This document shows, one piece after another, positions 1 to 41,890 of a stretch of DNA of 64,000 nucleotides (positions within the stretch are counted from its first letter, which is position 1; each line of letters opens with the position of its first letter). The stretch is from Heterodontus francisci (lineage: Eukaryota): NCBI RefSeq assembly GCF_036365525.1, contig NC_090404.1:3162001-3226000 (forward strand), written 5' to 3'. Position numbers and translations under genes: made by a program. Below the pieces are notes generated by a model. The model worked only from the letters and a program-made list of their open reading frames with translations. It did no database searches and was not told where the DNA came from.

Positions 1-3000
1 GGGCAGTAAGAGACCACTAAACTGACATAGTGTCATCAGTCGGGACACTGAGAGAACATGAAACTGACATAGTGTCACCAGGGGGGACACTGAGAGACCA
101 CTAAAATGACATAGTATCACCAGGGGGGGCACTGAGAGCCCACTAAACAGACAGAGTGTCATCAGTCGGGACACTGAGAGAACACTAAACTGACATAGTG
201 TCACCAGGGGGGACACTGAGAGAACACTAAACTGATATAGTGTCATCAGTGGGGTCACTGAGAGAACAATAAACTGATATAGTGTCACCAGGGGGGACAC
301 TGAGAGAACAATAAACTGACATAGTGTCACCAGGGGGGACACTGAGAGAACACTAAACTGACATAGTGTCATCAGTCGGGACACTGAGAGAACACTAAAC
401 TGACATAGTGTCATCAGTCGGGACACTGAGAGAACACTAAACTGATATAGTGTCATCAGTGGGGGACACTGAGAGAACAATAAACTGATATAGTGTCACC
501 AGGGGGGACACTGAGAGAACAATAAACTGACATAGTGTCACCAGGGGGGACACTGAGAGAACACTAAACTGACATAGTGTCACCAGTTGGGACACTGAGA
601 GAACAATAAAATGACATAGTGTCACCAGGGGGGACACTGAGAGAACACTAAACTGACATAATGTCACCAGGGGGGACACTGAGAACACTAAACTGACATA
701 GTGTCACCAGGTGGGACACTGAGAGAACACTAAACTGACATAGTGTCATCAGTCGGGACACTGAGAGAACACTAAACTGACATAGTGTCACCAGGGGGGA
801 CACTGAGAGAACAATAAACTGATATAGTGTCATCAGTCGGGACACTGAGAGAACACTAAACTGACATAGTGTCATCAGTCGGGACACTGAGAGAACACTA
901 AACTGACATAGTGTCATCAGTCGGGACACTGAGAGAACACTAAACTGACATAGTGTCATCAGTGGGGGACACTGAGAGAACAATAAACTGACATAGTGTC
1001 ATCAGTCGGGACACTGAGAGAACACTAAACTGACATAGTGTCATCAGTGGGGGACACTGAGAGAACAATAAACTGACATAGTGTCACCAGGGGGGACACT
1101 GAGAGACCACTAAACTGACATAGTGTCATCAGTCGGGACACTGAGAGAACAATAAACTGACATAGTGTCACCAGGGGGGACACTGAGAGAACACTAAACT
1201 GACATAGTGTCACCAGGGGGCAGTAAGAGACCACTAAACTGACATAGTGTCACCAGGGGGGACACTGAGAGAACACTAAACTGACATAGTGTCACCAGGG
1301 GGCAGTAAGAGACCACTAAACTGACATAGTGTCACCAGGGGGGGACAATGAGAGATCAATAAACTGATATAGTGTCACCAGGGGGCAGTAAGAGACCACT
1401 AAACTGACATAGTGTCACCAGGTGGGACACTGAGAGACCACTAAAATGACATAGTATCACCAGGGGGGGCACTGAGAGCCCACTAAACAGACAGAGTGTC
1501 ATCAGTCGGGACACTGAGAGAACACTAAACTGACATAGTGTCACCAGGGGGGACACTGAGAGAACACTAAACTGACATAGTGTCACCAGGGGGCAGTAAG
1601 AGACCACTAAACTGACATAGTGTCATCAGTCGGGACACTGAGAGAACATGAAACTGACATAGTGTCACCAGGGGGGACACTGAGAGACCACTAAAATGAC
1701 ATAGTATCACCAGGGGGGGCACTGAGAGCCCACTAAACAGACAGAGTGTCATCAGTCGGGACACTGAGAGAACACTAAACTGACATAGTGTCACCAGGGG
1801 GGACACTGAGAGAACACTAAACTGATATAGTGTCATCAGTGGGGGACACTGAGAGAACAATAAACTGATATAGTGTCACCAGGGGGGACACTGAGAGAAC
1901 AATAAACTGACATAGTGTCACCAGGGGGGACACTGAGAGAACACTAAACTGACATAGTGTCATCAGTCGGGACACTGAGAGAACACTAAACTGACATAGT
2001 GTCATCAGTCGGGACACTGAGAGAACACTAAACTGATATAGTGTCATCAGTGGGGGACACTGAGAGAACAATAAACTGATATAGTGTCACCAGGGGGGAC
2101 ACTGAGAGAACAATAAACTGACATAGTGTCACCAGGGGGGACACTGAGAGAACACTAAACTGACATAGTGTCACCAGTTGGGACACTGAGAGAACAATAA
2201 AATGACATAGTGTCACCAGGGGGGACACTGAGAGAACACTAAACTGACATAATGTCACCAGGGGGGACACTGAGAACACTAAACTGACATAGTGTCACCA
2301 GGTGGGACACTGAGAGAACACTAAACTGACATAGTGTCATCAGTCGGGACACTGAGAGAACACTAAACTGACATAGTGTCACCAGGGGGGACACTGAGAG
2401 AACAATAAACTGATATAGTGTCATCAGTCGGGACACTGAGAGAACACTAAACTGACATAGTGTCATCAGTCGGGACACTGAGAGAACACTAAACTGACAT
2501 AGTGTCATCAGTCGGGACACTGAGAGAACACTAAACTGACATAGTGTCATCAGTGGGGGACACTGAGAGAACAATAAACTGACATAGTGTCATCAGTCGG
2601 GACACTGAGAGAACACTAAACTGACATAGTGTCATCAGTGGGGGACACTGAGAGAACAATAAACTGACATAGTGTCACCAGGGGGGACACTGAGAGACCA
2701 CTAAACTGACATAGTGTCATCAGTCGGGACACTGAGAGAACAATAAACTGACATAGTGTCACCAGGGGGGACACTGAGAGAACACTAAACTGACATAGTG
2801 TCACCAGGGGGCAGTAAGAGACCACTAAACTGACATAGTGTCACCAGGTGGGACACTGAGAGAACACTAAACTGACATAGTGTCACCAGGGGGCAGTAAG
2901 AGACCACTAAACTGACATAGTGTCACCAGGGGGGGACAATGAGAGATCAATAAACTGACATAGTGTCACCAGGGGGCAGTAAGAGACCACTAAACTGACA

Positions 3001-5682
3001 TAGTGTCATCAGTCGGGACACTGAGAGAACATGAAACTGACATAGTGTCACCAGGGGGGACACTGAGAGACCACTAAAATGACATAGTATCACCAGGGGA
3101 GGCACTGAGAGCCCACTAAACAGACAGAGTGTCATCAGTCGGGACACTGAGAGAACACTAAACTGACATAGTGTCACCAGGGGGGACACTGAGAGAACAC
3201 TAAACTGATATAGTGTCATCAGTGGGGGACACTGAGAGAACAATAAACTGATATAGTGTCACCAGGGGGGACACTGAGAGAACAATAAACTGACATAGTG
3301 TCACCAGGGGGGACACTGAGAGAACACTAAACTGACATAGTGTCACCAGTTGGGACACTGAGAGAACAATAAACTGACATAGTGTCACCAGGGGGGGACA
3401 CTGAGAGAACACTAAACTGATATAGTGTCATCAGTGGGGGACACTGAGAGAACAATAAACTGATATAGTGTCATCAGTCGGGACACTGAGAGAACACTAA
3501 ACTGATATAGTGTCACCGGGGGGGGGACAATGAGAGATCAATAAAGTGACATAGTGTCACCAGGGGGCAGTAAGAGACCACTAAACTGACATAGTGTCAC
3601 CGGGGGCGGGGGACAATGAGAGATCAATAAACTGACATAGTGTCACCAGGGGGCAGTAAGAGACCACTAAACTGACATAGTGTCACCAGGTGGGACACTG
3701 AGAGACCACGAAACAGACAGAGTGTCATCAGTCGGGACACTGAGTGAACAATAAAATGACATAGTGTCACCAGGGGGGACACTGAGAGAACACTAAACTG
3801 ACATAGTGTCACCAGGGGGGACACTGAGAACACTAAACTGACATAGTGTCACCAGGTGGGACACTGAGAGAACACTAAACTGACATAGTGTCATCAGTCG
3901 GGACACTGAGAGAACACTAAACTGACATAGTGTCATCAGTCGGGACACTGAGAGAACAACAAACTGACATAGTGTCACCAGGGGGGACACTGAGAGAACA
4001 CTGAACTGACATAGTGTCACCAGGGGGCAGTAAGAGACCACTAAACTGACATAGTGTCATCAGTCGGGACACTGAGAGAACAATAAACTGACATAGTGTC
4101 ATCAGTCGGGACACTGAGAGAACACTAAACTGATATAGTGTCACCGGGGGGGGACAATGAGAGATCAATAAACTGACATAGTGTCACCAGGGGGCAGTAA
4201 GAGACCACTAAACTGACATAGTGTCACCGGGGGGGGACAATGAGAGATCAATAAACTGACATAGTGTCACCAGGGGGCAGTAAGAGACCACTAAACTGAC
4301 ATAGTGTCACCAGGTGGGACACTGAGAGACCACTAAACAGACAGAGTGTCATCAGACGGGACACTGAGAGAACAACAAACTGACATAGTATCACCAGGGG
4401 GGGCACTGAGAGAACACTAAACTGACATAGTGTCACCAGGTGGGACACTGAGAGACCACTAAACAGACAGAGTGTCATCAGTCGGGACACTGAGAGAACA
4501 TGAAACTGACATAGTGTCACCAGGGGGGCATTGAGAGAACACTAAACTGACATCGTGTCACCAGGGGGGGCACTGAGAGAACATGAAACTGACATAGTGT
4601 CACCAGGGGGGCATTGAGAGAACACTAAACTGACATAGTGTCACCAGGGGGGGACACTGAGAGATCAATAAACTGACATAGTGTCATCAGTCGGGACACT
4701 GAGAGAACATGAAACTGACATAGTGTCACCAGGGGGGCATTGAGAGAACACTAAACTGACATAGTGTCACCAGGTGGGACACTGAGAGACCACTAAACAG
4801 ACAGAGTTTCATCAGTCGGGACACTGAGAGAACACTAAACTGACATAGTGTCACCAGGGGGGGACACTGAGAGATCAATAAACTGACATAGTGTCATCAG
4901 TCGGGACACTGAGAGAACATGAAACTGACATAGTGTCACCAGGGGGCATTGAGAGAACACTAAACTGACATAATGTCACCAGGGGGGGCACTGAGAGACC
5001 ACTAAACAACAGAGTGTCATCAGTCGGGACACTGAGAGAACACTAAACTGACATAGTGTCACCAGGGGGGGCACTGAGAGACCACTAAACAGACAGAGTG
5101 TCATCAGTCGGGACACTGAGAGAACACTAAACTGACATAGTGTCACCAGGGGGGACACTGAGAGAACAATAAACTGACATAGTGTCACCAGGGGGGACAC
5201 TGAGAGAACACTAAACTGACATAGTGTCACCAGGGGGGACACTGAGAGAACAATAAACTGACATAGTGTCACCAGGGGGGACACTGAGAGACCACTAAAC
5301 TGAAATAGTGTCACCAGGGGGGACACTAAGAGAACAATAAACTGACATAGTGTCACCAGGGGGGACACTGAGAGACCACTAAACTGACATAGTGTCACCA
5401 GGGGGGACACTGAGAGACCACTAAACTGAAATAGTGTCACCAGGGGGGACACTGAGAGACTACTAAACTGATATATTGTCACCAGGGGGGCACTGAGAGA
5501 CCACTAAACTGATATAGTGTCACCAGGGGGGACACTGAGAGACCACTAAACTGAAATAGTGTCACCAGGGAGGACACTGAGAGAACACTAAACTGACATA
5601 GTGTCAGCAGGGGGCAGTAAGAGACCACTAAACTGACATAGTGTCACCAGGGGGGGGGGGGGGGGGACAATGAGAGATCAAT
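1..5682. repeat. 42-bp tandem satellite (AAACTGACATAGTGTCACCAGGGGGGACACTGAGAGAACACT and variants) with ~1.59 kb higher-order repeat; open at left edge
   Basis: Continuous 40-43 bp monomers. The variant order at 1-~1370 recurs at 1591-~2960 (identical ORFs 437/2028, 648/2239, 1025/2616) and partly again from ~2974. Confidence 0.97.
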
Positions 5683-10762: not shown

Positions 10763-11199
10763 GGGCTGAAATTTATGGTGCTGCCGCCGTAATCGGCAGT
10801 GGATGTAAAGGACGGCGGTCCGTCCGTGCTGGCCGCACGTGATATTAAACACGGTGGCTCATTTAACTGGCCGGGGCAGACTGCACGGCCGCCCCAGAGA
10901 TGTGCAGGGGGTGGTCTGTCCGTCCCGGCAGTGGTGTCAGGTACCTTTGCGCAGACGCTGACACCATTTTTAAAGAGCTTCGAGCTCTATCGTCACATTT
11001 AATTATTTAAAGGAGAATGGATTTGAAAAGAATCAATTGCTCTTGCTCCTTTCCTGCACCCTACAACAACCCATAGAGTTATTTCCTTGCCCCTCTCCTC
11101 CCCCACTCTCTAAAGCTCCTGTGAAGTATGTTGGGACATTTGATGATGCGATGGTGCAAGAGTTACCCCTGCAACTTAAACACTTCAAAACTTCATTCA

Positions 11200-11720
11200 A
11201 TACAAGAGTTCGAAGAGGCGTGTTTGTCACTGAATTGGCTGCTTTTGCACTTTTGCAAGTTGCAAGTTGTCTTCTTGTGGTCTAACTGAATTCCACCGTG
11301 TGGCAGCTGATGAGTGATATCAGTCTTTGCAACTCAGTGGAAAAAAGCAAAGCCCACATCAGATACTGCCCAGGAGGCGCATGTCTTTTCAAACTTACCA
11401 TTTCTCTGTGGTAGACAACAACAGCTGTGGCTCCACCTTCTGCCCGCCTGACCTGCTTCTGCTGTCGGAAAATGAAACACACATTGGCGTCTTGAGTTTC
11501 CATTGTGACCACACATCCCGCCCACACACCTCCTCCCACTTCCTGTCAACACACGCTTAAAATGGGTCAAAGTCACAACTCTCGCCCAAAAGCAGGCTGC
11601 AAGTTGGGTGGCCTCTTTTGAAAGAGTACAAGGTGCTCGCAAACATCACCGGAAGCAACACAGATCAATGGACTTCCGGCTGCTTGCAGTTCATCTCGAG
11701 GAAGCAGATGATCATTTATC
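11200..11720. promoter_or_regulatory. Candidate TCR-alpha 3' enhancer (E-alpha-like motif cluster)
   Basis: Unique sequence ~10 kb 3' of TRAC. RUNX TGTGGT 11276, 11407 and ACCACA 11508; ETS ACTTCCTGT 11538, ACCGGAAG 11648, ACTTCCGG 11672; E-boxes CAGCTG 11304, 11422 and CAGATG 11705; TCF/LEF TCAAAG 11567. Function is inferred only. Confidence 0.5.
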
Positions 11721-12099
11721 ATTGAAACATTTTTATCACAATATTTTGGTCAAAGTGACCTGCAGTATAATTTAACAAGAATGTTAAGAATGATATTTTG
11801 CCCAATCCCTCCATAGACTGTAGGCTGGCTTTAATTCACTCCGTTATGTCATTGAAGAACATCATGCCAATTCATAGATAGGAGTTAATGGACCCCAGAT
11901 ACACACCTATCCTGGTTTGAAAAGAAGCACAATGTTCGGACTGTTGTTTGTCATGACTGAGATTGAATACGGCGAAGGGTTGGTGGAGTTCCAGTTTGGT
12001 TTTGCTGTTGCTGAAGTGATGGATACTTGTCATATCTGTTTGATGGTGATGTTGGCGATGGTGGGGATGACGTGTTGAAGGTGATACCGATGGAGATGG

Positions 12100-20069: not shown

Positions 20070-20529
20070 CCATGATTCGATTTTCGATTTTTATTCTTCC
20101 CAGTCAAGCACTGGATTGAGTCACTTCCACGGGATGGTACATGAATATTCCAGGAGCCTAATCACAAGACATGCAACTTAATGTACAAAGAAGATAAAAT
20201 ATACATCTTACAATAATGCGGCCTATACTTTTAATAAATGCTCAGCTATCTCCAATAGTAAGAATGAGCAAAGCTTCATCGGAAGCTGCATATATATCAG
20301 ATTATTCTATACTACTGTTCGAGAGGGAAGGACAGAAATTACACTATCTTACATTCGTGAAGATTCTTTCAAACATAACTACTACAGACAGACACATATA
20401 TGTATTTAACATGTAACAGATTGCCTTTGGGCAGATGATAGGAGATGCAAACGTCATTCTGCATCACAATCGAAACAAAAATCCGTCATGTTCACACGAT
20501 TCCTTCTGTGCTTGCGATCAATTGTCCCT
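20070..20529 (-). other. TRAC: Candidate TRAC exon 4 (3' UTR)
   Basis: Exon 3 ends in a GT donor 1 nt after the stop. Nearest unique block has acceptor CTGTTATCTCTTTCTCTAG (AG at 20530-20531) and AATAAA at 20090-20095 on the minus strand. The 3' end is estimated. Confidence 0.5.
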
Positions 20530-21838: not shown

Positions 21839-21946
21839 CTTATGAGATCCAAACACGGATAGTCATCAAGGCGTTGAATACGATACTTTTAAAGAAGAGA
21901 AGTCTGAAGCCAAGGACTGTCAGTGAAAGCATATTCACGTGTGCAT
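21839..21946 (-). CDS. TRAC: TCR alpha constant exon 3 (TM and cytoplasmic): DAHVNMLSLTVLGFRLLFFKSIVFNALMTIRVWIS*
   Basis: Acceptor ttctcacag, phase 1; TM Arg/Lys/Asn spacing as in TRAC ([23 protein letters not shown]); TAA at 21840-21842, then G|GTGAG. Confidence 0.95.
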
Positions 21947-22188
21947 CTGTGAGAAGGGAAAGAAAAACACAGGAAATAAGGAGCCTATCGAAGACAATGA
22001 ACTGTTTTACAATAATAAATGTTTTTGCATGCTCTGCTATCTTAACCAATAACAGGGAACGATAAATCAGGCGAACGCTATCTGCAAAATTGCTGTTTTG
22101 AAAACGATTCCTTCAGAAACGAAGGCCTTTTTTGTGTTTACAATGTGTTTACAACAGACACAGGCATAAAAATACACATTGTACTCAC

Positions 22189-22236
22189 CGACTTCCTCCT
22201 CCTCTTCACGCTCAATACAAACTGCCTGGGAATCAC
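22189..22236 (-). CDS. TRAC: TCR alpha constant exon 2 (connecting peptide with interchain Cys): GDSQAVCIEREEEEEV
   Basis: cttcctcag acceptor, GTGAGT donor, 48 nt phase 1-1, in frame with exons 1 and 3. Confidence 0.9.
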
Positions 22237-22327
22237 CTGAGGAAGATCAATAATAATAATATTTACAACACTAGCAATAATGATTTCCACTTATAATCTC
22301 AATGAATAAAAAAATCAAAGAACATAC

Positions 22328-22609
22328 CAGAATCTGGATACGCTTTCGTTTGTTCACCCGTCGCAGTACACTGAAATTTTTCCTTCCACTCGGAGCCAGA
22401 CTTTGTCAGGAATCCGACCACACTGTAGCTGCGATCGGGGATGGACAGCGAGGTGTCGTTTTCCGTTCGGCTCGCTCTGTCATTCCCGTCTTTAACCGTC
22501 ACAGTGATGTTGTTTGGGAAAAAGTCTGTCACCAAGCACACGGGTGAAACCTCGGGCCGATCCCGCGGAGGGAGGATATAGACGGATGGTTTTGCAATAT
22601 CTTTCCGAT
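22328..22609 (-). CDS. TRAC: TCR alpha constant exon 1 (Ig C1-like domain): RKDIAKPSVYILPP...PVCLVTDFFP...YSVVGFL...FQCTAT...YPDS
   Basis: tatcaacag acceptor, GTATGT donor, 282 nt phase 1-1; PSVY, CLVTDF and second Cys; lies downstream of a J array with no D segments. Confidence 0.95.
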
Positions 22610-27205: not shown

Positions 27206-28202
27206 TATTCTAATTGTCATATTTGATGCATTTCATTTTCTTACTGAAGGTTCAAAATAACTGCACAGCAATATTCACCTTCACTGTGCCCTTAAGCTAC
27301 ATAATAACACAGCACTCAATGTGTGTTATTGGATGATTACCATGAATATAACAGTTCGCTTAGTGACACAAAATCGATTCATGTTTATTTCACTGTTAAC
27401 TACAATAATGTCACTAATTGTCTGCCCTGTTAGCATGTTTCTATTTCCAAACTCTGGCTGATAGGCATCTGATGTTCATTTCAATAAAGCCCAGTGCCAG
27501 CTGCTTGAAAACATCTGTCCTATGTGAATAAGTGTCCAATGAATTGATACTTTGTCAAATACATGGATTTGCTTCCAGAACAATGACATTGGATGACAAG
27601 TTACTAACTTGTCTCATGTGTCTGCCAAAGACTCAATAGAATTTTACAGTGTAAAGGGTAGGCATTTGGCATCAATACTGTCTCCCTGCAATAATTGTCC
27701 GTACAGTATCAACCTCTTCCCACTTCCCCAATACCAGTTTTCATTTTTAATCCATTATCCCCTTCCCTTTGGAAATACCCCTTATGGAGGTTGCTTACAG
27801 AACCACTTGCACATATATACGTCAATGACACACTAGTGCGCAAAACATAACAGTATGGAAAAATATTGGAAGATTCAACTTAATCCTGGCTTCAACTAGA
27901 ATGTTTGTTAATTGCCAAATTTGCAAAGCTCTTGTCTTCCCAGTACATAAACCCACAAACTACCCAGCATGGGATTTGCCATTAATTTCCATGAGCTATT
28001 TTTTTCCTATTTTTAATAATAGGATATTAAATCTGTGAATTGCATTTTTGTTGGACTTGATTTCCCCACACACAGTCTATTATTTTACGTTTATATTTCT
28101 ACAATATTTCTATTTGTCTATGCAGTTTTGCCCATTGTTTGCTAGTTAAGTCATGCAGGAGTAATATATCAGTTGTTTCAATGGAGAGAAAGGTTAACTT
28201 AC

Positions 28203-28259
28203 TCGGTGTTATGGTCACTCTGGTTCCTGGTCCAAATGTTTGTTTGTAGTTATTATTCA
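28203..28259 (-). other. TRAJ: J-alpha segment (most C-proximal): NNNYKQTFGPGTRVTITP
   Basis: RSS on +: CACAGCA 28260, 12 bp, ACAAAAACT 28279; GTAAGT donor. Confidence 0.93.
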
Positions 28260-29410
28260 CACAGCATAATATAGCCACACAAAAACTATGTGGCATGCCC
28301 AATTGTGAGTTACATTTTACAGGATGCATTGGTGAATGCTATTAAATATTATAATGTTGATGCTTCTGCTTTCAGAAGTACGACTGGCAAAATACATGAT
28401 CAGCTGCTAAATATTTTAAATGGTAACATTATTTGGCATTTTACAATACTTATCTGTGCTTATCTCTATCTACCTTTCAGTTAAAATTTGGGGGATATCC
28501 TATTTTATTAGCAAAGATCCATCAAAGATGCAAAAATTAATTCTGAGAAGGCGAATGATTTTAGTGAGCTGCCTAATGAGAATTTTATCACATATTTTGC
28601 ATTTAATGATAGACCAGGGGTCTGCAACCTTTTTTTTTACTTGAAGCGGCTTTTTAAAAATATTGCCCAAAATAAAAACTTTTGGGAGCCACAAGACAAA
28701 ATTTCAGCATTTCTAAACTAAATGCTTGATAAATTACTAAGTTTTTCTGGTAGGATGCCTAATTGGCAAATATAATGAGAAAAATGTATGTTTTAAATTT
28801 ATGTATCAATAGAAACAAATCAATTACAAATGGATGTAATTGAATTATTGCATTCTTTGATTTTTTTTTACTATAATTTTGTCAAGATTGTCATCTTTAA
28901 AACAAACTTGAACTTAAGATGTGTAGATTGAAGGCAATTTTTTCTCATGATAAAAAGGTAGCTTCTAATAGCACATGCAGAATAATTTATTGCCTTGGCT
29001 ATACTATGGTCGCATCCTTAAAACCTGTTCCTGAACCAAAGGCATTCTCTATAACCATCAGGTGTAGCCCGAACAGGTTTATTTAAAGCACAACAATGTT
29101 TTTCCATTAAAATAATCATTTGAAACGCAAAGTGCAGCATAATTATCCCTACAATAAAGCACTGCTCTTACCTTTCTTGACAATTTTTAAAGGATTTTTT
29201 TCATGTTAATGCAATCCAACTGGATTAGATTGGGAGCCGCAAAGAAGATGTTAAAGAGTGACATGTCCCAGGTTGCAGACCCCTGCCATTGATGATGGAA
29301 ATTATAAACCATGGCATTTTCATGTTTGTTTTAAGATCACATTTACAATTAATCAAATGTTTTATTTTTACTGAAAGATGGAAAACATGATAAAAAGCTT
29401 CAGCACTTAC

Positions 29411-29473
29411 TGGGTTCTACAATTAGCTTGGTCCCGCTTCCAAATGTTATCTTATTGTTGCCTCCATATTTCA
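29411..29473 (-). other. TRAJ: J-alpha segment: KYGGNNKITFGSGTKLIVEP
   Basis: CACAGTG 29474, 12 bp, ACAAAAAGT; GTAAGT donor. Confidence 0.95.
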
Positions 29474-29757
29474 CACAGTGCCTTATTCTCGTACAAAAAG
29501 TACCTATTGACCAATGCACAATGTCTGCCTCCTCTTCTGTGCAAACTAGTTCCCACAATGACCCCTTCAATGCAAGATTCTGTCTTCAGTCTATCCTGCT
29601 TTAACCAAGTTTTTGTCACACAACCAACCATCTAAATCCTTAGTTATAAACCCAAAGGCCATGATGATGAGTTATTGAAACATCTTGAATTCTTATTGAA
29701 CGTTCTCTTTACAGGAAGTGTGCCAGATTAAAAAAAATACTATCGAAAGAAAATTGT

Positions 29758-29885
29758 GCATTGCTGAAAATAGAGTCATGTTGTCGAAGCTTTTCATCTT
29801 GCACTCATCAGGACAATCCACAAGAATACCAATGTAAGGGAAAGTAACAACGTTACACTGTATGGGAAGAGAGTGCTGATTGGAA
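29758..29885 (-). mobile_element. Penelope-like terminal fragment
   Basis: Same family as 27065-27165; carries the hammerhead motif. Confidence 0.6.
29781..29816 (-). ncRNA. Minimal type I hammerhead ribozyme motif (PLE-type)
   Basis: Minus strand: UUGUC-CUGAUGA-GUGCAAGAU-GAAA-AGCU-UC-GACAA. Helix I 5 bp, intact core, palindromic helix III loop. Activity untested. Confidence 0.65.
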
Positions 29886-30501
29886 TTAATTTTTATAGCT
29901 TTCTGTTTAATTTTAGTCCACCTCACATTTTCTTCTGTGCTTCACCCGGTATTTATGATCCCTGTATTTTTCTACTCTCTCCCTTGCTGGCTGTCTTTTG
30001 TTGTATTTTCTCCTCCTCTCTCTCAGTTGCAGTGTAATCATAGACTGTACCATTTAATGCAACTCATTAACCAAGCAGTAAATATTGAAGTAAGCAATTA
30101 TTTATAAGTGTTGCTTATTCTATTGATGCTTGCAACATTGCTATAGAGTAGTGTGTAAAATTGCATCCAGCTGTTTTTTTAATGCAGTCATTAAATATTT
30201 GCATGTCACCAAATTTTGAAAATCTTTCTTATCTAATCTAACCTATTCTATCATCCAAGATTACTTCCATGTGTTATCTATCTCAACACTGGCCCTTTGA
30301 AAAATAATACAGTCCTAAATTTATCCTCTCCCTATAAGCTTTGCATTTATTACTGCACAGTTTATACACGGTAAAGTATATCCGCCTTGGGCTCTAACTA
30401 GACAATGCACTAAATTTGTTCAAATACATTTGAATGTTTCTAATTGATTACACAGTGGCAGGTTGGGTTAAAAGTTTCATTATGTTTTGTAAGATACTTA
30501 C

Positions 30502-30564
30502 ATGGTTGTACAGTTAATCTAGTCCCTGCTCCAAAGTTTAGTTTACTGTTCATTCCTTGATTCA
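30502..30564 (-). other. TRAJ: J-alpha segment: NQGMNSKLNFGAGTRLTVQP
   Basis: CACAGTA 30565, 12 bp, ACAATAAGC; GTAAGT donor. Confidence 0.93.
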
Positions 30565-31399
30565 CACAGTAATACACTCTCCCACAATAAGCCCCATGTT
30601 CATTTTGTGACCCTTTCATTGACCTATAATTCATCCCCATTGACATAATTTTCTTTCATTAGTTCTATCGAGTACTTCATATTAATTGGTGCTAACTGTT
30701 CTGTCACAATAAAAAGGCAATGCATTTTATTTCCATCCATGTACTTTGATTAATCTCACTGCACTAATTCTGATCAGACTAAATACACTTGTCACATTGT
30801 AAATTATTTAAGTTAGCTTTTACTGCTATGTGCTACCTTAACTAAATTTTAGATGGCGCTTTCTTCTCATCGTCCACAGAGTATCACATTTCCTACCATA
30901 AGTGTATTGATCAGTCTGAGAAACGTTAACCGGCATAATGTTAACTTGGTTTAAGTGGAAGGGTTTTGAATTGAATGGGTCAAAATCTTACCCAATATTG
31001 TCTCTGACCCACCTTTCTCATTTATTTTATAATTTTCCCCAGCGCGGTCCCACTGCATTATCCCAAATCGTAGAAATTTATTGTATGTACAAGTTAATCT
31101 AACCTCATTTTGTTTCTTGCCCTGTTGAGTTCCTGGTTGCCTCGGTGGGATTTTGCAGTCTATCTCCACTGGATTATACCTAATAGCTACTGAAACAAAT
31201 GTGTGAACAGTTCATGTACAAAGCTTGTATTTTTAGTGTGCCCAATGCCAATCTTAGTTAGCAGGAATCAATTTAATATTGGAGAGTTTATACCGTGACA
31301 TCTAATATTGATTAAACAGTTACTCTCAGGCATTGCTTTGCAAGTACTTATATTATCAGACACTTTGTGATCGTCCTCCCTTACACGCATAAATATCAT

Positions 31400-32005
31400 A
31401 TAATTCTACAACAATGAAGGATATTATTTAGCCTACCATGCTTGTACTGGGCCTTTGAAAGAACCAGCAATAAATTCCATTCCTCTGCTCTCTCACCACC
31501 TGAAAATTTCTCCTTTACAATAATATAACCAATTCCCTTTAGAAAGTTACAATTGAATCTGCTTGAACTATCCTTTCAAGCAGTGGATTCCAGATCACAC
31601 CAGCTCACTGAGTGTATATATATAAAAAATTACCCCTCTCCTTTTTTGACAATTATCTTAAATCTGTGTCCTCTGGTTACTCTGTCCTACTGGAAACAGT
31701 TTCTCCTTATTTACTCTATCAAAACTGTTCATGACTTTGAACCCTCTACCAAATTTTCTCTTTCTCTTCTCTGCTGGAAGGAGGACGATTCCAGCTTCTC
31801 CAGTCTCCATTAAGTTTTGAAGTTCCCCATCCTTGGTACCATTCTAGTAGATCTGCTCTGCACACTTTCTAAACTGTGATGCCCAGAGTTGGGCACAATA
31901 CCCTAGCTGAGGCCTAACTACTGATTTATAAAGGTTTAGTATAACTTCATTGCTTTTCTACTCTTTGCTTCTACTTGTATCACCAAGGATCCTGTTTGCT
32001 TTTTC
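31400..32005 (-). mobile_element. Old CR1 LINE relic
   Basis: Similar to 12100-12495 and 24020-24280. Confidence 0.6.
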
Positions 32006-32092
32006 AACGGAATATGGAAGCTATTAAACCCAATGTTTGAAACTAATTGTAACCTCTAACAGTGCTTTCCTGTTAGTGTATTAGATAAGGTA

Positions 32093-32172
32093 ACATAGAA
32101 CATAGAACATTACAGCGCAGTACAGGCCCTTCGGCCCTCGATGTTGCGCCGACCTGTGAAACCATCTGACCT
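32093..32172 (-). mobile_element. Very short young CR1 3' end
   Basis: (ACATAGA)n tail followed by CAGGCCCTTCGGCCC. Confidence 0.6.
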
Positions 32173-32399
32173 AAACATGAAATCTTCGATTCCACAGTAT
32201 AGCCTTGAGCATCATTTGAGCCTTACTCTCGACTGTTCTTGGTCTATTTTGTCAATGATCTACTTTGTCCAGTGTCTATCTTTATTAAGTACCACTTTAT
32301 ATGCTATTGTAACAATTGGTAATATTTGAAATAGGTCTGACATATGTGCAGTTGTTAATCAGGTTTTCCAGTGAAACTTAAGTTTATTAAATTACATAC

Positions 32400-32462
32400 T
32401 TGGCTGCACAGTTAGTTTGGTTCCCCTTCCAAAGGTCAGCACCTCAGTTCCTCTATTAGTCA
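32400..32462 (-). other. TRAJ: J-alpha segment: TNRGTEVLTFGRGTKLTVQP
   Basis: CACACTG 32463, 12 bp, ACAAAATCT; GTATGT donor. Confidence 0.9.
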
Positions 32463-33089
32463 CACACTGCTACAACCCCTGACAAAATCTGTTCCTATGA
32501 TACTGGGTTAAGTTTCATTCTAGTTCTACCTCACAGAACTATAATGAGAGACGACTGCCAGTCACAAAGGCCCATTTCCCTAATGAATGCAGGTTATTCA
32601 TAGCAATATCAATAATTTTAAGTTAAGGACAATTTGAATTCACTTCAGACTTTCGCTCCATCTCATTAGTACATTTTAAATATCTCTGTGCTGTACATTT
32701 GAGGAATCCACAACTTAGTGAATGACTCCTAGTCTTAGCAAGCAACTTTGAATGAACTTCTCCTCCATATTGACCCTAATGAGTCCAAGTGAAGTTTTCA
32801 TCATTCTCAATTAACTTTCAAAAATGCTGCTTGCTATGTTTAAAATCTGGCCAATGTATCATCCATTTTAATTTATTTTCCACTTTATTTCATGTTTAGT
32901 GATCTTTTTTATACTTCAAGTCTCACAGCAGTACAGGTAATGTCTATGATTTAAAATTTCAATGGCGAGTCAATGGAGGTGATTGGAAAAATAAGGTATT
33001 TGCAATTTCCAATGGATTGCTTTCAAGGGTCTGTTCATCACTTCTTCAAAACACAAGTGTGCTGCAAGGCAGAATTATTTACCAATGTT

Positions 33090-33855
33090 ATAACAACAAC
33101 TTGCTACTGTCTAGCACCTTTGATGTAGTAAACCATCACAAGACATTTCATGAAAAAATTTGGAACCGAGCCATGTTACGAGATATTAGGACAGGTACCC
33201 CTAAAGCTTCATCACAGCTGTAGCTTCTCAGGAAAGGGAGTTCGAAAGGCAGTGAGATTTAGGAAGGAAATTCCAGAGCTTAGGGCCTGAACCTGAAAGC
33301 AGGGCCTCCAAGGGAAGAGTGTAGGAAATGAGAGGAGAACAGAGATCTTGGAGGGAAATAGGGCTGGAAGAGGATTCAGATATGGAAGGGTGAATTCATG
33401 GAGGGATTTCGAAACAAGGACAAAACAATAACTGTCTATTCTGATCAAAAAGCTTTGGGGCAGTGAGGCGCACATTTGCCTCTGAGATTCTGTGTACAAG
33501 TTCTATTCCGCAGACTTGTGTACAACATTTAGGCTGATACCTTAGTGTAACATGCAGGAGTATTGGTTTGGATGTGGCAGTAAATGCTATTAGGTGGATG
33601 TAAAAGATTCCAAGGCACTATGCAAAGTTATCCCCAGTATCCTGGCCAATATTAATCCCTCAATGAACATAATTAAAAAAAAAAGATAGGCTGGTTGTTG
33701 CAATATGGGTATTTGTGGGAGCTTGTTGTGCAAAAAGTGGCTGCTGCCTTTCCTACACTGTAACATTGAATACACTTCAAAGACCTTCATTGGTGCTAAA
33801 CTGCCATGGGATGGCCTGAGGCTGCGAGAAAGCGCTATATAAATGCAAGTCTTTT
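33090..33855. mobile_element. Degenerate L2 3' fragment (minus, ~33090-33425) followed by an L2-tailed SINE (plus, ~33460-33855)
   Basis: ORF 33212-33499 reads FVLVSKSLH..LPYL; SINE ends GCGCTATATAAATGCAAGT. Confidence 0.5.
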
Positions 33856-34171
33856 CAGATTTATCAAAATCTGGAGTATACTTTTAAATCAGATTTCATT
33901 AATAGCTGTAACATAATTACCTTTGAAAATTGACAATCTGAGAATCACTTGATGAGAGTTTCAAATTATTTGTAGAACTCAGTTGTCATGAACTTCATGC
34001 TAGTTCAATCGACTATCGCACACCTTAAATTGCATCATTTTGACCAAAATCTTATCATAATAATTGGAGAAAAAAATTGCAATTGTCTTTTTCTTGGAAA
34101 CAGCTTTCACCTTTGGAATAGTTTCTGTTTGGTAAAAGTTTATTGGAAAATGAAAATAGTTCTGCACTTAC

Positions 34172-34228
34172 TGGGTTCTACAGTGAGAGGAGTCCCTCTT
34201 CCAAATACCAGTTTAATCCTATCACCTA
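34172..34228 (-). other. TRAJ: J-alpha segment: GDRIKLVFGRGTPLTVEP
   Basis: CACAATG 34229, 12 bp, ACAAAAACT; GTAAGT donor. Confidence 0.92.
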
Positions 34229-34369
34229 CACAATGAAAGCCCCAATAACAAAAACTCATCGTACTATCAGGTTTTTTCAATATGATCTGTTGTGCACTTT
34301 TTTATTGACCTTACGCCAAAGAGCCAACAATATTTTGAATGAAGTTTTGGAATCTTGATTTTTGCCTTT

Positions 34370-34738
34370 ATAACATATCAAATTCTTAAGGGGCTTGGCA
34401 GGGTGGATGATAAGAGGCTGTTTCCCCTTGGCAGGAGAGTCTGGAACACAGGAACACAGTCTCAGAATAATAGGTTGGCCATATTGGACTGAGATGAGGA
34501 GAAATTTCTTCTCTCAGAGGGTTGTGAATCTTTGGAATTCTCTATCCCAGAGAGCTGTGGATGCTCCGCCTTTGAGTATATTCAAGTCAATTGATTTTTG
34601 GCAATAAGGGAACCAGGGAATATGGGGATTGTGCAAGAAGGTTGAGTTAAGGATGCAGACTAGCCATGATACTAATTAATGGTGAAGCAGGGTGTAAGGG
34701 GCTGAATGGCCTACTTCTGCTCCTGTTTCTTATATTCT
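34370..34738 (+). mobile_element. CR1 LINE 3' fragment
   Basis: ORF 34395-34607 (EMRRNFFSQRVVNLWNSL). Confidence 0.85.
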
Positions 34739-35301
34739 TAACATATATAATGGGTATACAAGCAATATATTCAAAAGTTTTTTTTACGTAGAATTGAATA
34801 GCATTTCCAGCACAGAAACAGGCCATTTTCAACCCAACTAGTCTATGCTGGCATTAATTCTCCTCACGAGCCTCCATCCACCCTATTTCATCTAACCCTC
34901 TCTGCATATACTTCTATTACTTTCAGCTTCACATACATATCTCGATTTCCTTCAAATGCATCTCAACTACACCATGTGGCACCACGTTCCTCATTCTAAC
35001 TACTCTCCGGGTAAAGAGGTTTCTCCTGAATTCTTTGTTGGATTCATTAGTGACTATCTTACATAATTGGGCCCTAGTTTTAGACTCATTCACAAATGGA
35101 AAAACCCTTCTGTAATTTCAACCATAAGTTATCAATCAGCCTTCTCTTTTGTTCCAGAGAAAAATGGTCCAGACAGTTCGGTCTTTCCTGATAGATTTAA
35201 TTACTGTTAATTGTAATTAGTTGGTGATACTTAATAATGAAACAACATTCTGACTATCATGCACGGAATTTAAAAACTACACGGAATTAGAATTCGCTTA
35301 C

Positions 35302-35358
35302 TAGGTTGCACCATTAGTTTGGTCCCAGATCCAAATATTAGCTGATTGATACGACTCA
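35302..35358 (-). other. TRAJ: J-alpha family A: SRINQLIFGSGTKLMVQP
   Basis: CACAGCA 35359, 12 bp, GCAGATACC; GTAAGC donor. Confidence 0.88.
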
Positions 35359-35678
35359 CACAGCATTACATGTTACTGCAGATACCTGATGCCAAGTGTA
35401 TAAGCTATTGATGAGATGAACTGCATGCTACATTTGTGGATTATCAATATTACAAGTTCAACTATTAACAAGTGTCATGTTTCCCATGTCATTCAAATCA
35501 ATTTAGGTTCATCCTCACACAATAACACTACAATTACACAATGTAAAATTATAGTTTAGTTTTGTCTATTTCTACGTGGTATCCATTGACAATCTGTACA
35601 TTATCTTGACCAGAATTCATAATTTTCTTGTAAACTAATTGACGTGGTCATTTTGAGGAATTATAATTGAGTTCTTAC

Positions 35679-35741
35679 CAGGATTAACAATGAGTTTGGT
35701 GCCTCCTCCAAATACCATTTTATCATATCCTCCAGAAGCCA
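35679..35741 (-). other. TRAJ: J-alpha family B: ASGGYDKMVFGGGTKLIVNP
   Basis: CACAGTA 35742, 12 bp, ACAAGAACT; GTAAGA donor. Confidence 0.92.
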
Positions 35742-35949
35742 CACAGTAACTGATCCCTTCACAAGAACTCAGGAGAGTGCTGGTTCCCGATGTACCATTA
35801 CTATCATCACTGATTTATTCTCATTGTCATTTCAATGACTTGAAATAACTCAGCAATCTAATTGTTATCTTCACTAGATTATTCATTAAAATTCTTTAAT
35901 TTCTTTTAGTCAGATTCGTGACATTATTCTTTCATAGGACTACACTTAC

Positions 35950-36009
35950 TGGGTACCACGATTAGTCTGGTCCCACCTCCAAAAATAAACTTGTAGCTCC
36001 CATCCCTCA
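35950..36009 (-). other. TRAJ: J-alpha family C: RDGSYKFIFGGGTRLIVVP
   Basis: CACAGCC 36010, 12 bp, ACAACAACC; GT donor. Confidence 0.9.
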
Positions 36010-36679
36010 CACAGCCCGACACTGCCTAACAACAACCTTCTGGATTAGTTATTTGTCTGTTTTACTGCTGCAATTGAAAGTAATAGCCACACATTTTGTC
36101 TGTTTACATATATGTTTTTATCCACCTATCTATCTCTCACTCTACATCTATCAATCCATCTGTGTACAAATAGGAGTAATGACTTAATGCTTCATGTATT
36201 ACATAGACAGGCATACATACATAAATATGTAGTAGCAACAGTGCATAATCAACCAAATCCACCCCCTGGTAATTATATTTGTTTAATGTTCATGAAATAA
36301 TTTTAACATTAAAATAATGTTCTAGCATTAGGAAAAAAATACACCACAGAAACAGGCTGTTCTGTCCAACTGGTCTATTCCAGCATTTTTGCTCCACAGG
36401 AACTTCTTCCCAGGCTCTTTATTTAATCCTACCAGGATATTCTTCAATTCCTTTCCCCCTGCTGTACTTATCCAGCTTCCCCTTAAATCCATACATGTTC
36501 CTAACCGCAACTATCCATGCCGTATCAAGTTCCACACTCCAAAATGAAGCAGCATAAATGTCAGAAAATTCAGGATTAATTGAACATATGGAGAAATTAT
36601 TTGATTCATTGTTGGCCGTACAGAGAACATACACGTGTGTCAATCGACAGATAGTCTATAGTTATTAATGAATACCTAC

Positions 36680-36742
36680 TTGGCTCCACAATTAACTTTG
36701 TTCCTTTTCCAAAGATAAGCTCATTGCCAATTCCAAAATTCA
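36680..36742 (-). other. TRAJ: J-alpha family D: NFGIGNELIFGKGTKLIVEP
   Basis: CACAGCA 36743, 12 bp, GCAAAAGCT; GTAGGT donor. Confidence 0.9.
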
Positions 36743-36951
36743 CACAGCATTGCATCCTTTAGCAAAAGCTCCCTTCATATTAACTGCAGTAATTGTTTGC
36801 TCATTCCGGCACCTATATTTGAACCCTTGACATCTTCCGATGCCATAATAGTGACACAAACCATTTTTAGAACAACATTGTCATTTATTAGGCAATCCTT
36901 GAGTTTTCTGTTCTAACATAGAAAACAGATATCCTTAAACATCACACTTGC

Positions 36952-37008
36952 TGGGTATAACCTGGAGTCTGGTCCCTGATCCAAAGATCAGCTTCACAGC
37001 AAGGTTCA
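36952..37008 (-). pseudogene. TRAJ: J-alpha family F, defective: NLAVKLIFGSGTRLQVIP
   Basis: Open frame, but heptamer AACAGCC (CAC lost) and GC donor. Confidence 0.8.
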
Positions 37009-37730
37009 AACAGCCTGATAGGCTGACACGAAACCAGCCAGCCATTCCCAGACATTACTTCACCTGTTGTTTCTTAAAGAACCATCCATATTTTCAGTTA
37101 TGTTTTGGAATGTTTACCTGAGCCTTTAGATTTATGACTCAGAAACTGTTAATATTTCCAATACCAATTAGACTTTAAACAGAATTGCATCAAATTTGTA
37201 GCCCAGAAACAGGTCATTCAGCCCAATTCATCTATGTCTGTACTCATGTCACACATGAGCCTCATCTCATCCTACATCATCTCACTCTTTCTGCATATCC
37301 ATCTGTTCCTTTCTCCACCGTGCATTTATCCTGCTTCACCTTAAATGCAGTTATGTTGTTCACATCAACTATTTCCTGTGGTAGCACGTTCCACATTCTC
37401 ACCACTCTCTGGGCAAGGAAGTTTCTCCTGAATTCCACATTGGATTTATTACTGATTATCTTATATTGACGACTCTTAGTTTAAATTTCCCAACAAGTGG
37501 AAAAAAATTGCTTTGTCTCCCCTATCAAACCCCTTCTTAATGTTAAAGACCTCTAATAGCTGATCCCTCTGCTGTGTGTTTTCTAGAGAAATGGTTCCTA
37601 GCCTGCTTAGTATTTCTTGATAGTTATTATTTAACGTTAATTATAAATAACTAACAATACTTATTAACAAAACAATATTTCGGCTTACATCATCATAATA
37701 AAAAAAAATAAAGAATTAGACTTCACTTAC

Positions 37731-37787
37731 TAGGTTCCACAATTAATTTGGCCCCAGATCCAAATGTTAGCTTATTGGCATTATTCA
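37731..37787 (-). other. TRAJ: J-alpha family A: NNANKLTFGSGAKLIVEP
   Basis: CACAGCA 37788, 12 bp, GCAGAAACC; GT donor. Confidence 0.9.
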
Positions 37788-38129
37788 CACAGCATTACAT
37801 ACCAGTGCAGAAACCCATTTATCTGATACCTATTATATAGAGTATCTGTGAAATGAACTGTATATTATATTTTTGGATTGTCAATATTCCAATTTAGATT
37901 GTTAACAAGTGACGAATATTGCATATTTCCCATCTCATTCAAATCAATGCAATTTCAATCAGCCTTACACTTTAATACTAACTATTACTCAATGTAAAAC
38001 TAGAGATTAATTTGATCTACCTCTGCTTGGTGTCCATTGACTATCTGTACATTATTTTGACCAGAATTCATTATTTGTTTGTAAACTAATCTGCATGGTC
38101 ATTTTGAAGAATGATTATTGAGTTCTTAC

Positions 38130-38192
38130 CAGGCTTAACATTGAGTCTGGTGCCTCCTCCAAATACCATTTTAGCATAGCCTGCAGATTCCA
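38130..38192 (-). other. TRAJ: J-alpha family B: ESAGYAKMVFGGGTRLNVKP
   Basis: CACAGTA 38193, 12 bp, ACAAGAACT; GT donor. Confidence 0.92.
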
Positions 38193-38400
38193 CACAGTAA
38201 CTGATCCCTTGACAAGAACTCAGGATAGTAATTGTTCCCTATGTACCACTGTAGTCACTACTGAATTAATCTCATTGGCGTTTCAATGACTTGAATTCAG
38301 TAAGCAAACTAATTGTTCTATTTTCTAGATTATTCATGACAATTCTTTAATTTCTTTAAATCAGATTTGTGACATTGTTCTCCCTTAAGACAACACTTAC

Positions 38401-38460
38401 TGGGTTCCACGATTAGTCTGGTCCCACTTCCAAAAATAAGCTTGTAGCTCCCAACATTCA
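38401..38460 (-). other. TRAJ: J-alpha family C: NVGSYKLIFGSGTRLIVEP
   Basis: CACAGCC 38461, 12 bp, ACAAAAACC; GT donor. Confidence 0.93.
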
Positions 38461-39074
38461 CACAGCCCTACACTGCCTAACAAAAACCTTCTGAGGTAAT
38501 TATTATTCTACATCTATCTTAATCTTGTAATTTAAAGTAGAGAGGCACAAATTTTACCTGTTCACTTTAAATATATGTTTTCATCTATTTCTCTACCAAC
38601 ATATAGGAATAGTAAATTGATGTTTCATAGACAGGCACATAGATGCATAAATATATAGAGGCATCAGTGCATATCAACAACAGACAGCCCTTGGCAATTA
38701 TATTTGCTCAATATCCATGAACTGATTTTATTATAATAATACATTACAAAGAAACAGGCGATTCTATCCAACTGGCCTATTCCAACATTTCTGCTCCACA
38801 TCAGCTTCCTCCCACCCTCTTTATCCAATCTTATCAGGGTATTGTTCTATCCCTTTCACCTTGCTGTACTTATCCAGCTTCCACTTAAATCCATACATGC
38901 TTCTCACTTTTGGAGCTTCATGTGGTCGCAAGTTACAGACTCCAAAACAAACTCTTACAATATGCAGGAACATTGAACAGACAGCAAAATTATTTGATTA
39001 ATTGTTGGCAGTACAGAGAACATACACATGTGCGTAAGTCAATAGATAGTCTATAGTTATTAATGAATACTTAC

Positions 39075-39131
39075 TTGGCTCCACAATTAACGTTGTCCCT
39101 TTTCCAAAGATATAGCCAACTCCAGCATTCA
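39075..39131 (-). other. TRAJ: J-alpha family D with in-frame 6-nt deletion: NAGVGYIFGKGTTLIVEP
   Basis: CACAGCA 39132, 12 bp, GCAAAAACT; GT donor. Confidence 0.88.
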
Positions 39132-40388: not shown

Positions 40389-40448
40389 TGGGGTGAACTT
40401 GGAGCTCAGTCCCAGCTCCAAATATCACCTTGAAGGAGTCAGCACTCA
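40389..40448 (-). other. TRAJ: J-alpha family E: SADSFKVIFGAGTELQVHP
   Basis: CACACCA 40449, 12 bp, ACAAAAATC; GT donor. Confidence 0.87.
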
Positions 40449-40685
40449 CACACCATTACACCCCTCAACAAAAATCCTTTCCTTAACAATGATTCATCAC
40501 CCTGACACATTCCTAATTCACATTAAGAATCCCCTCACCGTGCTTGAAGTAGGCCATTTCCAAAATTTCATATCACAGCGGGGAGGGCCAAATTATGTAA
40601 AAGTTAATTGGATCAATATTTCAAAGAATTTGATGACATGCTTTTCTGTTCTAATACATAGAACTGAAATCCTTTAATATCTCAC

Positions 40686-40742
40686 TGGGTATAAAGTGGA
40701 GCCTGGTCCCTAATCCAAAAATCAGTTTATTAGCATGGTTTA
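40686..40742 (-). pseudogene. TRAJ: J-alpha family F, defective: NHANKLIFGLGTRLHFIP
   Basis: Heptamer position reads GACTGCC. Confidence 0.78.
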
Positions 40743-41445: not shown

Positions 41446-41502
41446 TAGGTTCCACAGTTAGTTTGGTCCCAGATCCAAATGTTAGCTTGTTGATATTATT
41501 CA
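41446..41502 (-). other. TRAJ: J-alpha family A: NNINKLTFGSGTKLTVEP
   Basis: CACAGCA 41503, 12 bp, GCAGAAACC; GT donor. Confidence 0.92.
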
Positions 41503-41827: not shown

Positions 41828-41890
41828 CAGGATTAACAATGAGTTTGGTGCCTCCTCCAAATACCATATTACCATATCCTGCAGGATCCA
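41828..41890 (-). other. TRAJ: J-alpha family B: DPAGYGNMVFGGGTKLIVNP
   Basis: CACAGTA 41891, 12 bp, ACAAGAACT; GT donor. Confidence 0.92.

What the first reader, a model, noticed from the sequence alone, without database searches (positions are those of the whole stretch)
11200..11720. Candidate chondrichthyan TCR-alpha enhancer (E-alpha)
Seen: a non-repetitive island among TE debris with 3 RUNX sites, 3-4 ETS sites, 3 E-boxes (two overlapping TGTGGC), a TCF/LEF core (11567), a RUNX-ETS-like composite ACCACACATCC (11508-11518) and an ISRE-like GAAAATGAAAC (11468-11478). Established: mammalian E-alpha lies 3' of C-alpha and binds CREB, TCF1/LEF1, RUNX1, ETS1 and E proteins. Inference: this is the functional equivalent. 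No canonical CRE was seen.
Basis: partly seen in the sequence, partly recalled or inferred. Interest (0 to 1): 0.7.

Follow-up and report, generated by a model that had tools for sequence, protein, structure and literature searches.

The report
Shark TCR-alpha enhancer beside CTCF repeat
A low-copy stretch 8 kb past a shark's T-cell receptor alpha gene is unusually rich in RUNX and ETS binding motifs and is likely the enhancer that switches this gene on in developing T cells, and a long repeat next to it is predicted to bind the insulator protein CTCF.

Summary
The listed motifs are present. The island lies 8.4 kb 3' of the TCR-alpha constant gene (94 J segments upstream, ABHD4 downstream); the genome matches horn shark. 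It is low-copy, with one degenerate partial duplicate 23 kb away. RUNX (5) and ETS (4) sites are enriched: it is the top RUNX+ETS cluster in 584 kb and holds the only CAGGAAGTGG, the ETS1 T-cell-enhancer consensus, in 464 kb. The E-boxes and TCF core are at chance level; the 'TCF' site reads better as an ROR element. Cross-species support is thin: 36 bp in one of three other organisms, with no positive control. No activity data were available. Best reading: a T-cell enhancer that works like E-alpha (about 0.55), not a demonstrated homologue. New: 5.5 kb further downstream lies a locus-specific 17-kb minisatellite with 38 same-strand CTCF-like sites, where mice have the EACBE insulator.

The parts
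11165..11760 (.). Candidate T-cell enhancer: low-copy island carrying the RUNX/ETS cluster
   Evidence: Motifs; enrichment; 2 genome matches only; CpG o/e 0.46, not a CpG island. Boundaries are approximate.
11536..11545 (-). CAGGAAGTGG, identical to the consensus of the ETS1-specific distal-enhancer motif 3 of Hollenhorst 2009
   Evidence: Only copy in 464 kb; motif from PMC2787013 passages
11508..11518 (-).
11559..11569 (+).
   Evidence: One of 8 such non-tandem sites in 464 kb, 0.011 expected per 521 bp. RORE is AGGTCA plus an A/T-rich flank; the G-for-A variant is accepted from a recalled consensus.
11635..11689 (.). Two head-to-head CCGGAAG ETS sites (11649+, 11673-) inside an imperfect inverted repeat; a further AGGAAG at 11699
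   Evidence: hairpin z -3.0 on the minus strand and -1.7 on the plus strand, window chosen post hoc
11276..11431 (+). Four RUNX sites (11276, 11299, 11407, 11426), two of them abutting or overlapping CAGCTG E-boxes (11304, 11422)
11245..11280 (+). 36-bp module rich in TGCAA(C/G)T words; among the best-kept blocks in the local duplicate and the only cross-species match
   Evidence: 79-84% identity to the duplicate over 11231-11350 against 71% overall; 33 of 36 identical in one contig of organism D
11428..11446 (-). Moderate CTCF-like site (13.9 bits, recalled matrix)
   Evidence: One of 10 sites of at least 13 bits outside the array in 446 kb
9..5655 (+). In-window part of a 17.2-kb, 42-bp-unit minisatellite (G000:C34:3150434-3167655, about 409 units) with CTCF-like sites on the + strand
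   Evidence: TRF; 135 of 135 genome matches of a 23-mer lie in it; 38 sites of at least 15 bits against 5 in the other 446 kb; 1 of 34 arrays carries any
21840..22609 (-). TCR-alpha constant gene coding exons: Ig-C 22609-22328, hinge 22236-22189, TM/stop about 21946-21840
   Evidence: C1-set E 1.6e-8 and a weak DUF1968 hit; TM exon matches TCR alpha/delta chains; splice sites
20090..20529 (-). TRAC 3' UTR exon ending at AATAAA (20095)
   Evidence: Sequence and polyA scan; exon start inferred from an acceptor-like site
28200..62700 (-). J-alpha array (43 J segments in the window, 94 between C-alpha and C-delta)
10766..11105 (.). Dispersed repeat bounding the island on the left
   Evidence: 40 matches scored from 2535 candidates

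Best explanation
The island is a low-copy, RUNX- and ETS-rich element 8.4 kb 3' of the shark TCR-alpha constant gene and is likely a T-cell enhancer that works like mammalian E-alpha. Inferred mechanism: ETS1/FLI1, RUNX-CBFbeta and E proteins would pre-occupy it in early thymocytes. RORgamma-t and other pre-TCR-induced factors would then switch it on. It would loop to J-alpha and V promoters, drive germline transcription, and so open the 94 J-alpha segments to RAG. The CTCF-like minisatellite downstream would bound its reach toward ABHD4. Shown: position, low copy number, motif enrichment, and the array with its motifs. Inferred: binding, activity, target and insulation.
For: Locus order V - J-delta(19) - C-delta - J-alpha(94) - C-alpha - element - ABHD4 - SLC7A7/8-like; ABHD4 is a known TRA/D flanking gene (PMC12698447 passages).

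RUNX+ETS sum reached by 0 of 5000 shuffles. Top window in 6 of 6 settings over 464 kb and over 584 kb (5.95 against 4.13 for the next). Block shuffles reach the score in 1 of 60 locus-wide and 0 of 60 within the 20 kb 3' of TRAC; letter-permuted motifs reach it in 0 of 60 there.

The only CAGGAAGTGG in 464 kb matches the ETS1 T-cell-enhancer consensus (PMC2787013). A RORE-like site is present, and RORgamma-t binds mouse E-alpha (PMC13639285 section 16).

Not a dispersed repeat (controls 22, 86), not a CpG island, and not the ABHD4 promoter, whose ATG exon and CpG island lie 60 kb away.
Against: No CRE, no full TCF/LEF site and no exact [ACG]AGGATGTGGY composite; these are the hallmarks of the mammalian core. 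E-boxes are not enriched.

The motif set was chosen knowing the element; permuted motif pairs reach the same score somewhere in 464 kb in 7 of 60 trials. Two of the four ETS sites form one inverted repeat. Counted as one, the score falls to 4.98, close to the mean shuffled maximum of 4.54. Those two sites are of the CCGGAAG type, which is typical of housekeeping promoters rather than enhancers.

The ETS/RUNX core had no cover at 80% likeness in 6 runs from 3 other organisms; no positive control was run and the tool says a hole proves nothing. The duplicate has lost 4 of the 5 RUNX sites. The same scan found no comparable cluster between J-delta and C-delta, where E-delta would be expected, so it did not recover a second expected enhancer.
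Confidence: 0.55

Rival explanations
1. The island is neutral, old unique DNA, and the motif cluster is a chance peak noticed after the fact; the real enhancer lies elsewhere or is diffuse.
For: Permuted motifs match the score somewhere in 7 of 60 trials; the score is 4.98 if the inverted ETS pair counts once; no cross-species cover of the core; E-box and TCF counts at chance level.
Against: The peak sits in the expected place (0 of 60 in both nulls within 20 kb 3' of TRAC). Two further rare motifs (CAGGAAGTGG, RORE) fall in it. The 36-bp module is kept in a duplicate and apparently in another organism.
Confidence: 0.24
2. It is a regulatory element of another kind: a broader haematopoietic or innate enhancer (ETS/RUNX/IRF/CEBP-like words) or an enhancer for ABHD4, not a TCR-alpha-specific switch.
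For: CCGGAAG sites, an ISRE-like word and six TGCAA(C/G)T words. RUNX/ETS grammar is shared by many blood lineages (established knowledge). IgH genes are reported near the elasmobranch TCR alpha/delta locus (PMC12227049 abstract in the listing).
Against: The nearest gene is TRAC (8.4 kb, against 60 kb for ABHD4). The CTCF-like array lies between the island and ABHD4.
Confidence: 0.13
3. It is the promoter and first exon of an unannotated non-coding RNA, possibly with a small hairpin, on the TRAC strand.
For: Head-to-head CCGGAAG pair; hairpin at 11635-11689 with z -3.0; a GGTAAGT donor-like word at 11393(-).
Against: No Rfam hit inside 11200-11720; whole-island fold z -0.79; no TATA box or CpG island; the hairpin window was chosen post hoc.
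Confidence: 0.05
4. It is the decayed remnant of a very old transposon or of a local duplication, with no function.
For: Repeats on both sides; a 71%-identical partial copy 23 kb away.
Against: Only 2 genome matches, where neighbouring old repeats give 31-40. Repeats next to it were covered deeply by other organisms' contigs while the island was not.
Confidence: 0.03

Closest known systems
Mouse/human Tcra enhancer E-alpha (T-alpha1 to T-alpha4)
   Same: Directly 3' of C-alpha; RUNX, ETS, E-box (three), GATA-like and ROR-like sites in a few hundred bp (factor list: PMC10358851 introduction, PMC7696796 passage, PMC13639285 section 16)
   Different: No CRE, no full TCF/LEF site, no exact GAGGATGTGGC composite; carries a CCGGAAG pair and repeated TGCAA(C/G)T words; DAD1 is not downstream here; function untested
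EACBE / E-alpha CBEs (mouse)
   Same: CTCF-like motifs lie between the enhancer and the downstream genes (mouse: two motifs about 500 bp 3' of the core, insulating Dad1/Abhd4; PMC7515734 and bioRxiv 2026.04.27.721065 passages)
   Different: Here 38 predicted sites in a 17-kb minisatellite 5.5-23 kb away, plus one moderate site inside the island; binding untested; the mouse orientation was not resolved from the passages read
CTCF-binding macrosatellite DXZ4
   Same: Tandem repeat carrying many CTCF sites (PMC3491370, abstract in the listing only)
   Different: 42-bp unit at an antigen-receptor locus, not X-linked; binding only predicted
ETS1-specific distal enhancers of T cells (Hollenhorst 2009 motifs 3 and 4)
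   Same: Exact motif-3 consensus CAGGAAGTGG
   Different: The final base gives GTGGG, not RUNX YGYGGY, so it is not a full composite

Membership tests
Mammalian E-alpha | Lies a few kb 3' of C-alpha | tested here: met
   8.4 kb past the TRAC polyA and 10.1 kb past the stop, with much of the gap made of repeats
Mammalian E-alpha | Downstream neighbours DAD1 and ABHD4 | tested here: inconclusive
   ABHD4 present; DAD1 found only on contig C5 and not in 464 kb
Mammalian E-alpha | Clustered RUNX and ETS sites | tested here: met
Mammalian E-alpha | ETS/RUNX composite [ACG]AGGATGTGGY | tested here: not met
   Absent from the island; nearest are CAGGAAGTGG(G) and GGATGTGTGGT
Mammalian E-alpha | CRE (CREB/ATF) site | tested here: not met
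   0 TGACG in 11200-11720
Mammalian E-alpha | TCF1/LEF1 site | tested here: not met
   No WWCAAAG; one TCAAAG at chance level
Mammalian E-alpha | Three E-boxes | tested here: inconclusive
   3 present, 4.73 expected by shuffling
Mammalian E-alpha | CTCF sites just downstream (EACBE) | tested here: inconclusive
   One 13.9-bit site inside and a 38-site array 5.5 kb on, scored with a recalled matrix
Mammalian E-alpha | Sequence conservation across related species | tested here: inconclusive
   36 bp in 1 of 3 organisms, core not covered, no positive control
Mammalian E-alpha | Sequence homology to the mammalian enhancer | not testable with these tools
   No vertebrate genome other than G000 is searchable
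Mammalian E-alpha | Required in cis for J-alpha germline transcription and V-J rearrangement in DP thymocytes | not testable with these tools
   Needs chromatin data, reporters or deletion
ETS/GABPA housekeeping promoter | CCGGAAGT inside a CpG island next to a first exon | tested here: not met
   CCGGAAGT present, but CpG o/e 0.46 against a regional median of 0.43; ABHD4 has its own island 60 kb away
Transposable element | Dispersed copies in the genome | tested here: not met
   2 matches, both local; controls gave 31-40
Known structured ncRNA | Rfam match | tested here: not met
   No hit inside 11200-11720; 3 weak hits far below gathering score in the left flank

The most novel reading that the evidence does not exclude
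Sharks already use the mammalian layout of an enhancer plus CTCF insulator at the 3' end of the TCR alpha/delta locus. They build the enhancer without the CREB/LEF enhanceosome (ETS, RUNX, E, ROR and an unidentified TGCAA(C/G)T binder instead). In this species the insulator has been amplified into a locus-specific 17-kb minisatellite with about 38 co-oriented CTCF sites facing the receptor locus, acting as a loop-extrusion super-anchor for V-J recombination.
Probability: 0.17. Interest if true: 0.72.

Novelty: new member of a known kind. Interest (0 to 1): 0.45.

Why it matters
No shark TCR-alpha enhancer turned up in ten searches of the open library; subscription journals are not covered. If real, it would give a concrete, clonable element for asking which part of the E-alpha code (ETS/RUNX/E/ROR versus CREB/LEF) dates to the origin of adaptive immunity. 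It would also be a handle on what targets the somatic hypermutation reported for shark TCR-alpha (PMC5931798, listing abstract). The CTCF-like minisatellite, if bound, would be a tandem repeat serving as the 3' anchor of an antigen-receptor locus. An enhancer 3' of C-alpha is expected, which caps the surprise.

Tried and rejected
Cross-species laying: 6 DNA-type runs of organisms C, D and E gave no cover of 11290-12085 at 80% likeness; only 48-88% of each run was read, a filter drops records, and no exon control was laid, so this is not evidence of absence. ABHD4 protein identity to other sharks and rays is only 67-84%, so an 80% DNA threshold is probably too strict here.

One RNA-type run of the own organism (X5, tissue unknown) gave no cover; uninformative.

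TGCAA(C/G)T: 6 copies against 0.24 expected and the top window in 584 kb, but 36 of 400 random real windows have an equally extreme best 5-mer, so it is not counted as evidence.

A TRAC homolog search returned 0 hits among 42 candidates. An attempt to use TCR-beta/gamma loci as positive controls failed: the C1-set hits inspected (9 of 150) looked like Ig or MHC domains by eye and none was identified as TRB or TRG; the C23 stretch fetched was not analysed further.

Contig C1869 is a 99.997% duplicate of window 16800-49366 and does not reach the island. The ABHD4-promoter, transposon and Rfam readings were rejected. Earlier-findings look-ups returned nothing. Term searches for 'enhancer' gave 0 occurrences in PMC12227049, PMC5278385, PMC12698447 and PMC5931798; PMC11952427 held no RORE consensus.

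Full report
Coordinates are window coordinates; negative values and values above 64000 extend along G000:C34 (contig position = 3162000 + value).

LOCUS. The window is G000:C34:3162001-3226000 of a 6.0-Gb genome. The nearest named protein record for a neighbouring gene is 99% identical, sits on a contig of the same length, and is labelled Heterodontus francisci. A constant gene lies on the minus strand: Ig-C exon 22609-22328 (C1-set), hinge 22236-22189, a TM exon whose best matches are TCR alpha and delta chains, and AATAAA at 20095. Upstream are 94 J segments, a second TM exon at 139.8 kb, 19 more J segments and V genes. This makes the first gene C-alpha and the second C-delta. Downstream are ABHD4 (ATG exon at -48,893 with its own CpG island) and an SLC7A7/8-like exon recognised by eye at about -181 kb. 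DAD1 was found only on contig C5. The island is therefore 8.4 kb 3' of TRAC, where E-alpha lies in mammals (PMC10358851).

OBSERVATION. Against 5000 dinucleotide shuffles, ETS (4 vs 0.38-0.46) and RUNX (5 vs 1.40) are enriched and their sum (9 vs 1.79) was never reached; E-boxes (3 vs 4.73) and the TCF core (1 vs 1.37) are not enriched. With tandem repeats left in, 2-3% of windows over 264 kb equal or exceed the raw loose-RUNX sums, the top ones inside tandem arrays. With windows more than 20% tandem dropped, the island ranks first in 6 of 6 settings over 464 kb (about 35,400-35,800 windows) and first over 584 kb (5.95 against 4.13; 47,018 windows). Block shuffles reached the score in 1 of 60 locus-wide and 0 of 60 in the 20 kb 3' of TRAC. 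Letter-permuted motif pairs reached it in 7 of 60 locus-wide and 0 of 60 in that 20 kb. The motif set was chosen knowing the island. Two ETS sites form one inverted repeat; counting them once gives 4.98. The signal is real but not overwhelming, and much of its force comes from position.

COPY NUMBER. The island has two genome matches, itself and a copy of its left half at about -11,814 to -11,570, 185 of 259 aligned bases identical. The copy keeps RUNX 11276 and one E-box as CACCTG and loses the other RUNX sites. The same search gave 40 and 31 matches for neighbouring repeats, so old repeats are detectable. The right flank 11700-12120 gave one weak extra match.

REFINED ANATOMY. A better site is CAGGAAGTGG at 11536-11545(-): it is that paper's consensus for ETS1-specific T-cell enhancers and the only copy in 464 kb; 11 looser matches exist. 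The 'TCF core' lies within an A/T-rich run followed by GGGTCA, one of 8 non-tandem ROR-element-like sites in 464 kb (definition, G variant recalled), and RORgamma-t binds mouse E-alpha. Two TGATAA sites lie at 11716 and 11733. CRE and full TCF/LEF sites are absent. The two CCGGAAG sites are of the type enriched at housekeeping promoters, but the island is not a CpG island (o/e 0.46, regional median 0.43).

CONSERVATION. A search of sequencing runs with 10766-20750 listed 24 runs. I laid 7 of them: 6 DNA-type runs from organisms C, D and E, and one RNA-type run of the own organism. Only organism D (2 runs, one sample) covered the island: one 214-nt contig matched 11245-11280 with 3 differences, and the 30 letters before that match are a second, 24-of-30 copy of the same module. 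The contig is not anchored to TRAC, so orthology is unproven. The ETS/RUNX core had no cover. No positive control was laid and the tool warns that holes prove nothing, so the test is inconclusive.

THE MINISATELLITE. From 5655 down to -11,566 runs a 42-bp array of about 409 units that begins exactly where the duplicate ends. All 135 genome matches of a 23-mer from it lie in this array, so it is locus-specific. By the usual convention (recalled) they face the receptor locus. It is the only 1 of 34 tandem arrays in 584 kb with such sites; 25 of 2000 column-permuted matrices found any site in it and 1 of 2000 found 38 or more. Against this: only about 1 unit in 10 carries the strong variant, the commonest variant breaks the core, the region is rich in minisatellites generally, and binding is untested. 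In mice two CTCF motifs about 500 bp 3' of E-alpha form a domain boundary that limits E-alpha action on Dad1 and Abhd4.

MECHANISM AND VERDICT. Most likely (0.55) this is a T-cell enhancer acting on the TCR alpha/delta locus through ETS, RUNX, E proteins and ROR, bounded downstream by CTCF sites. Position, low copy number, enrichment and the array are shown; binding, activity and target are inferred. Three defining sequence features of the mammalian core (CRE, TCF/LEF, exact composite) were tested and not met, so I do not file it as a member of that family, only as working like it. Rivals: chance cluster 0.24, other regulatory element 0.13, non-coding RNA promoter or exon 0.05, remnant 0.03.

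PAPERS SEEN. Passages only: PMC7696796, PMC7515734, PMC2787013, PMC12698447, PMC12310595, PMC10334362, bioRxiv 10.64898/2026.04.27.721065. PMC10358851: abstract, introduction and start of methods. PMC13639285: passages and section 16. Term search with no occurrences, plus listing abstract: PMC12227049, PMC5278385, PMC5931798, PMC11952427. Listing only: PMC3491370. No supplements were read; those of the EACBE papers may give CTCF orientations, and shark locus papers in subscription journals may already mention an enhancer.

Noticed in passing
G000:C34:3443700-3462000 (window-relative 281.7-300 kb, + strand): A second, inverted J-delta/C-delta cassette (11 J matches; TM exon nearly identical to the first C-delta; 77-94% DNA identity), with V genes of both orientations between the two cassettes. 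It resembles the two-C-delta layout recalled for Xenopus.
   Followed up: partly
window 9-5655 and on to G000:C34:3150434: Locus-specific 42-bp minisatellite of 17 kb with 38 co-oriented CTCF-like sites and signs of a higher-order repeat of about 1.6 kb.
   Followed up: yes
G000:C5:114501424-114502450: DAD1 was found only on another chromosome-scale contig and not beside TRAC, while ABHD4 stays: a break in the usual TRA/D flanking synteny.
   Followed up: partly
L006:6930-6965 (window-relative about -33,060): CAGGATGTGG next to an ROR-element-like site at the edge of a repeat, 53 kb 3' of TRAC; a weaker second enhancer candidate.
   Followed up: partly
G000:C1869 (32,567 bp): 99.997% duplicate of window 16800-49366 including TRAC; probably a redundant assembly contig rather than a second gene.
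   Followed up: yes
window-relative 110,905 and 114,052 (minus strand): Two one-mismatch CTCF-like consensus sites at the 5' end of the J-alpha array, where a TEA-like promoter would be expected; they score below 13 bits with the matrix.
   Followed up: no
window 11170-11604: Six TGCAA(C/G)T words, the densest such window in 584 kb, binder unknown; not significant after allowing for word choice.
   Followed up: partly
window 12600-13900 and G000:C34:2969700-2976300: A LINE-like 3' fragment in the window and a long element with extended open frames further downstream, recognised by eye.
   Followed up: no
L061:4541-4798 (G000:C29:10570541): A lone Ig C1-set exon on the contig that carries MHC-like exons; identity not determined.
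   Followed up: no
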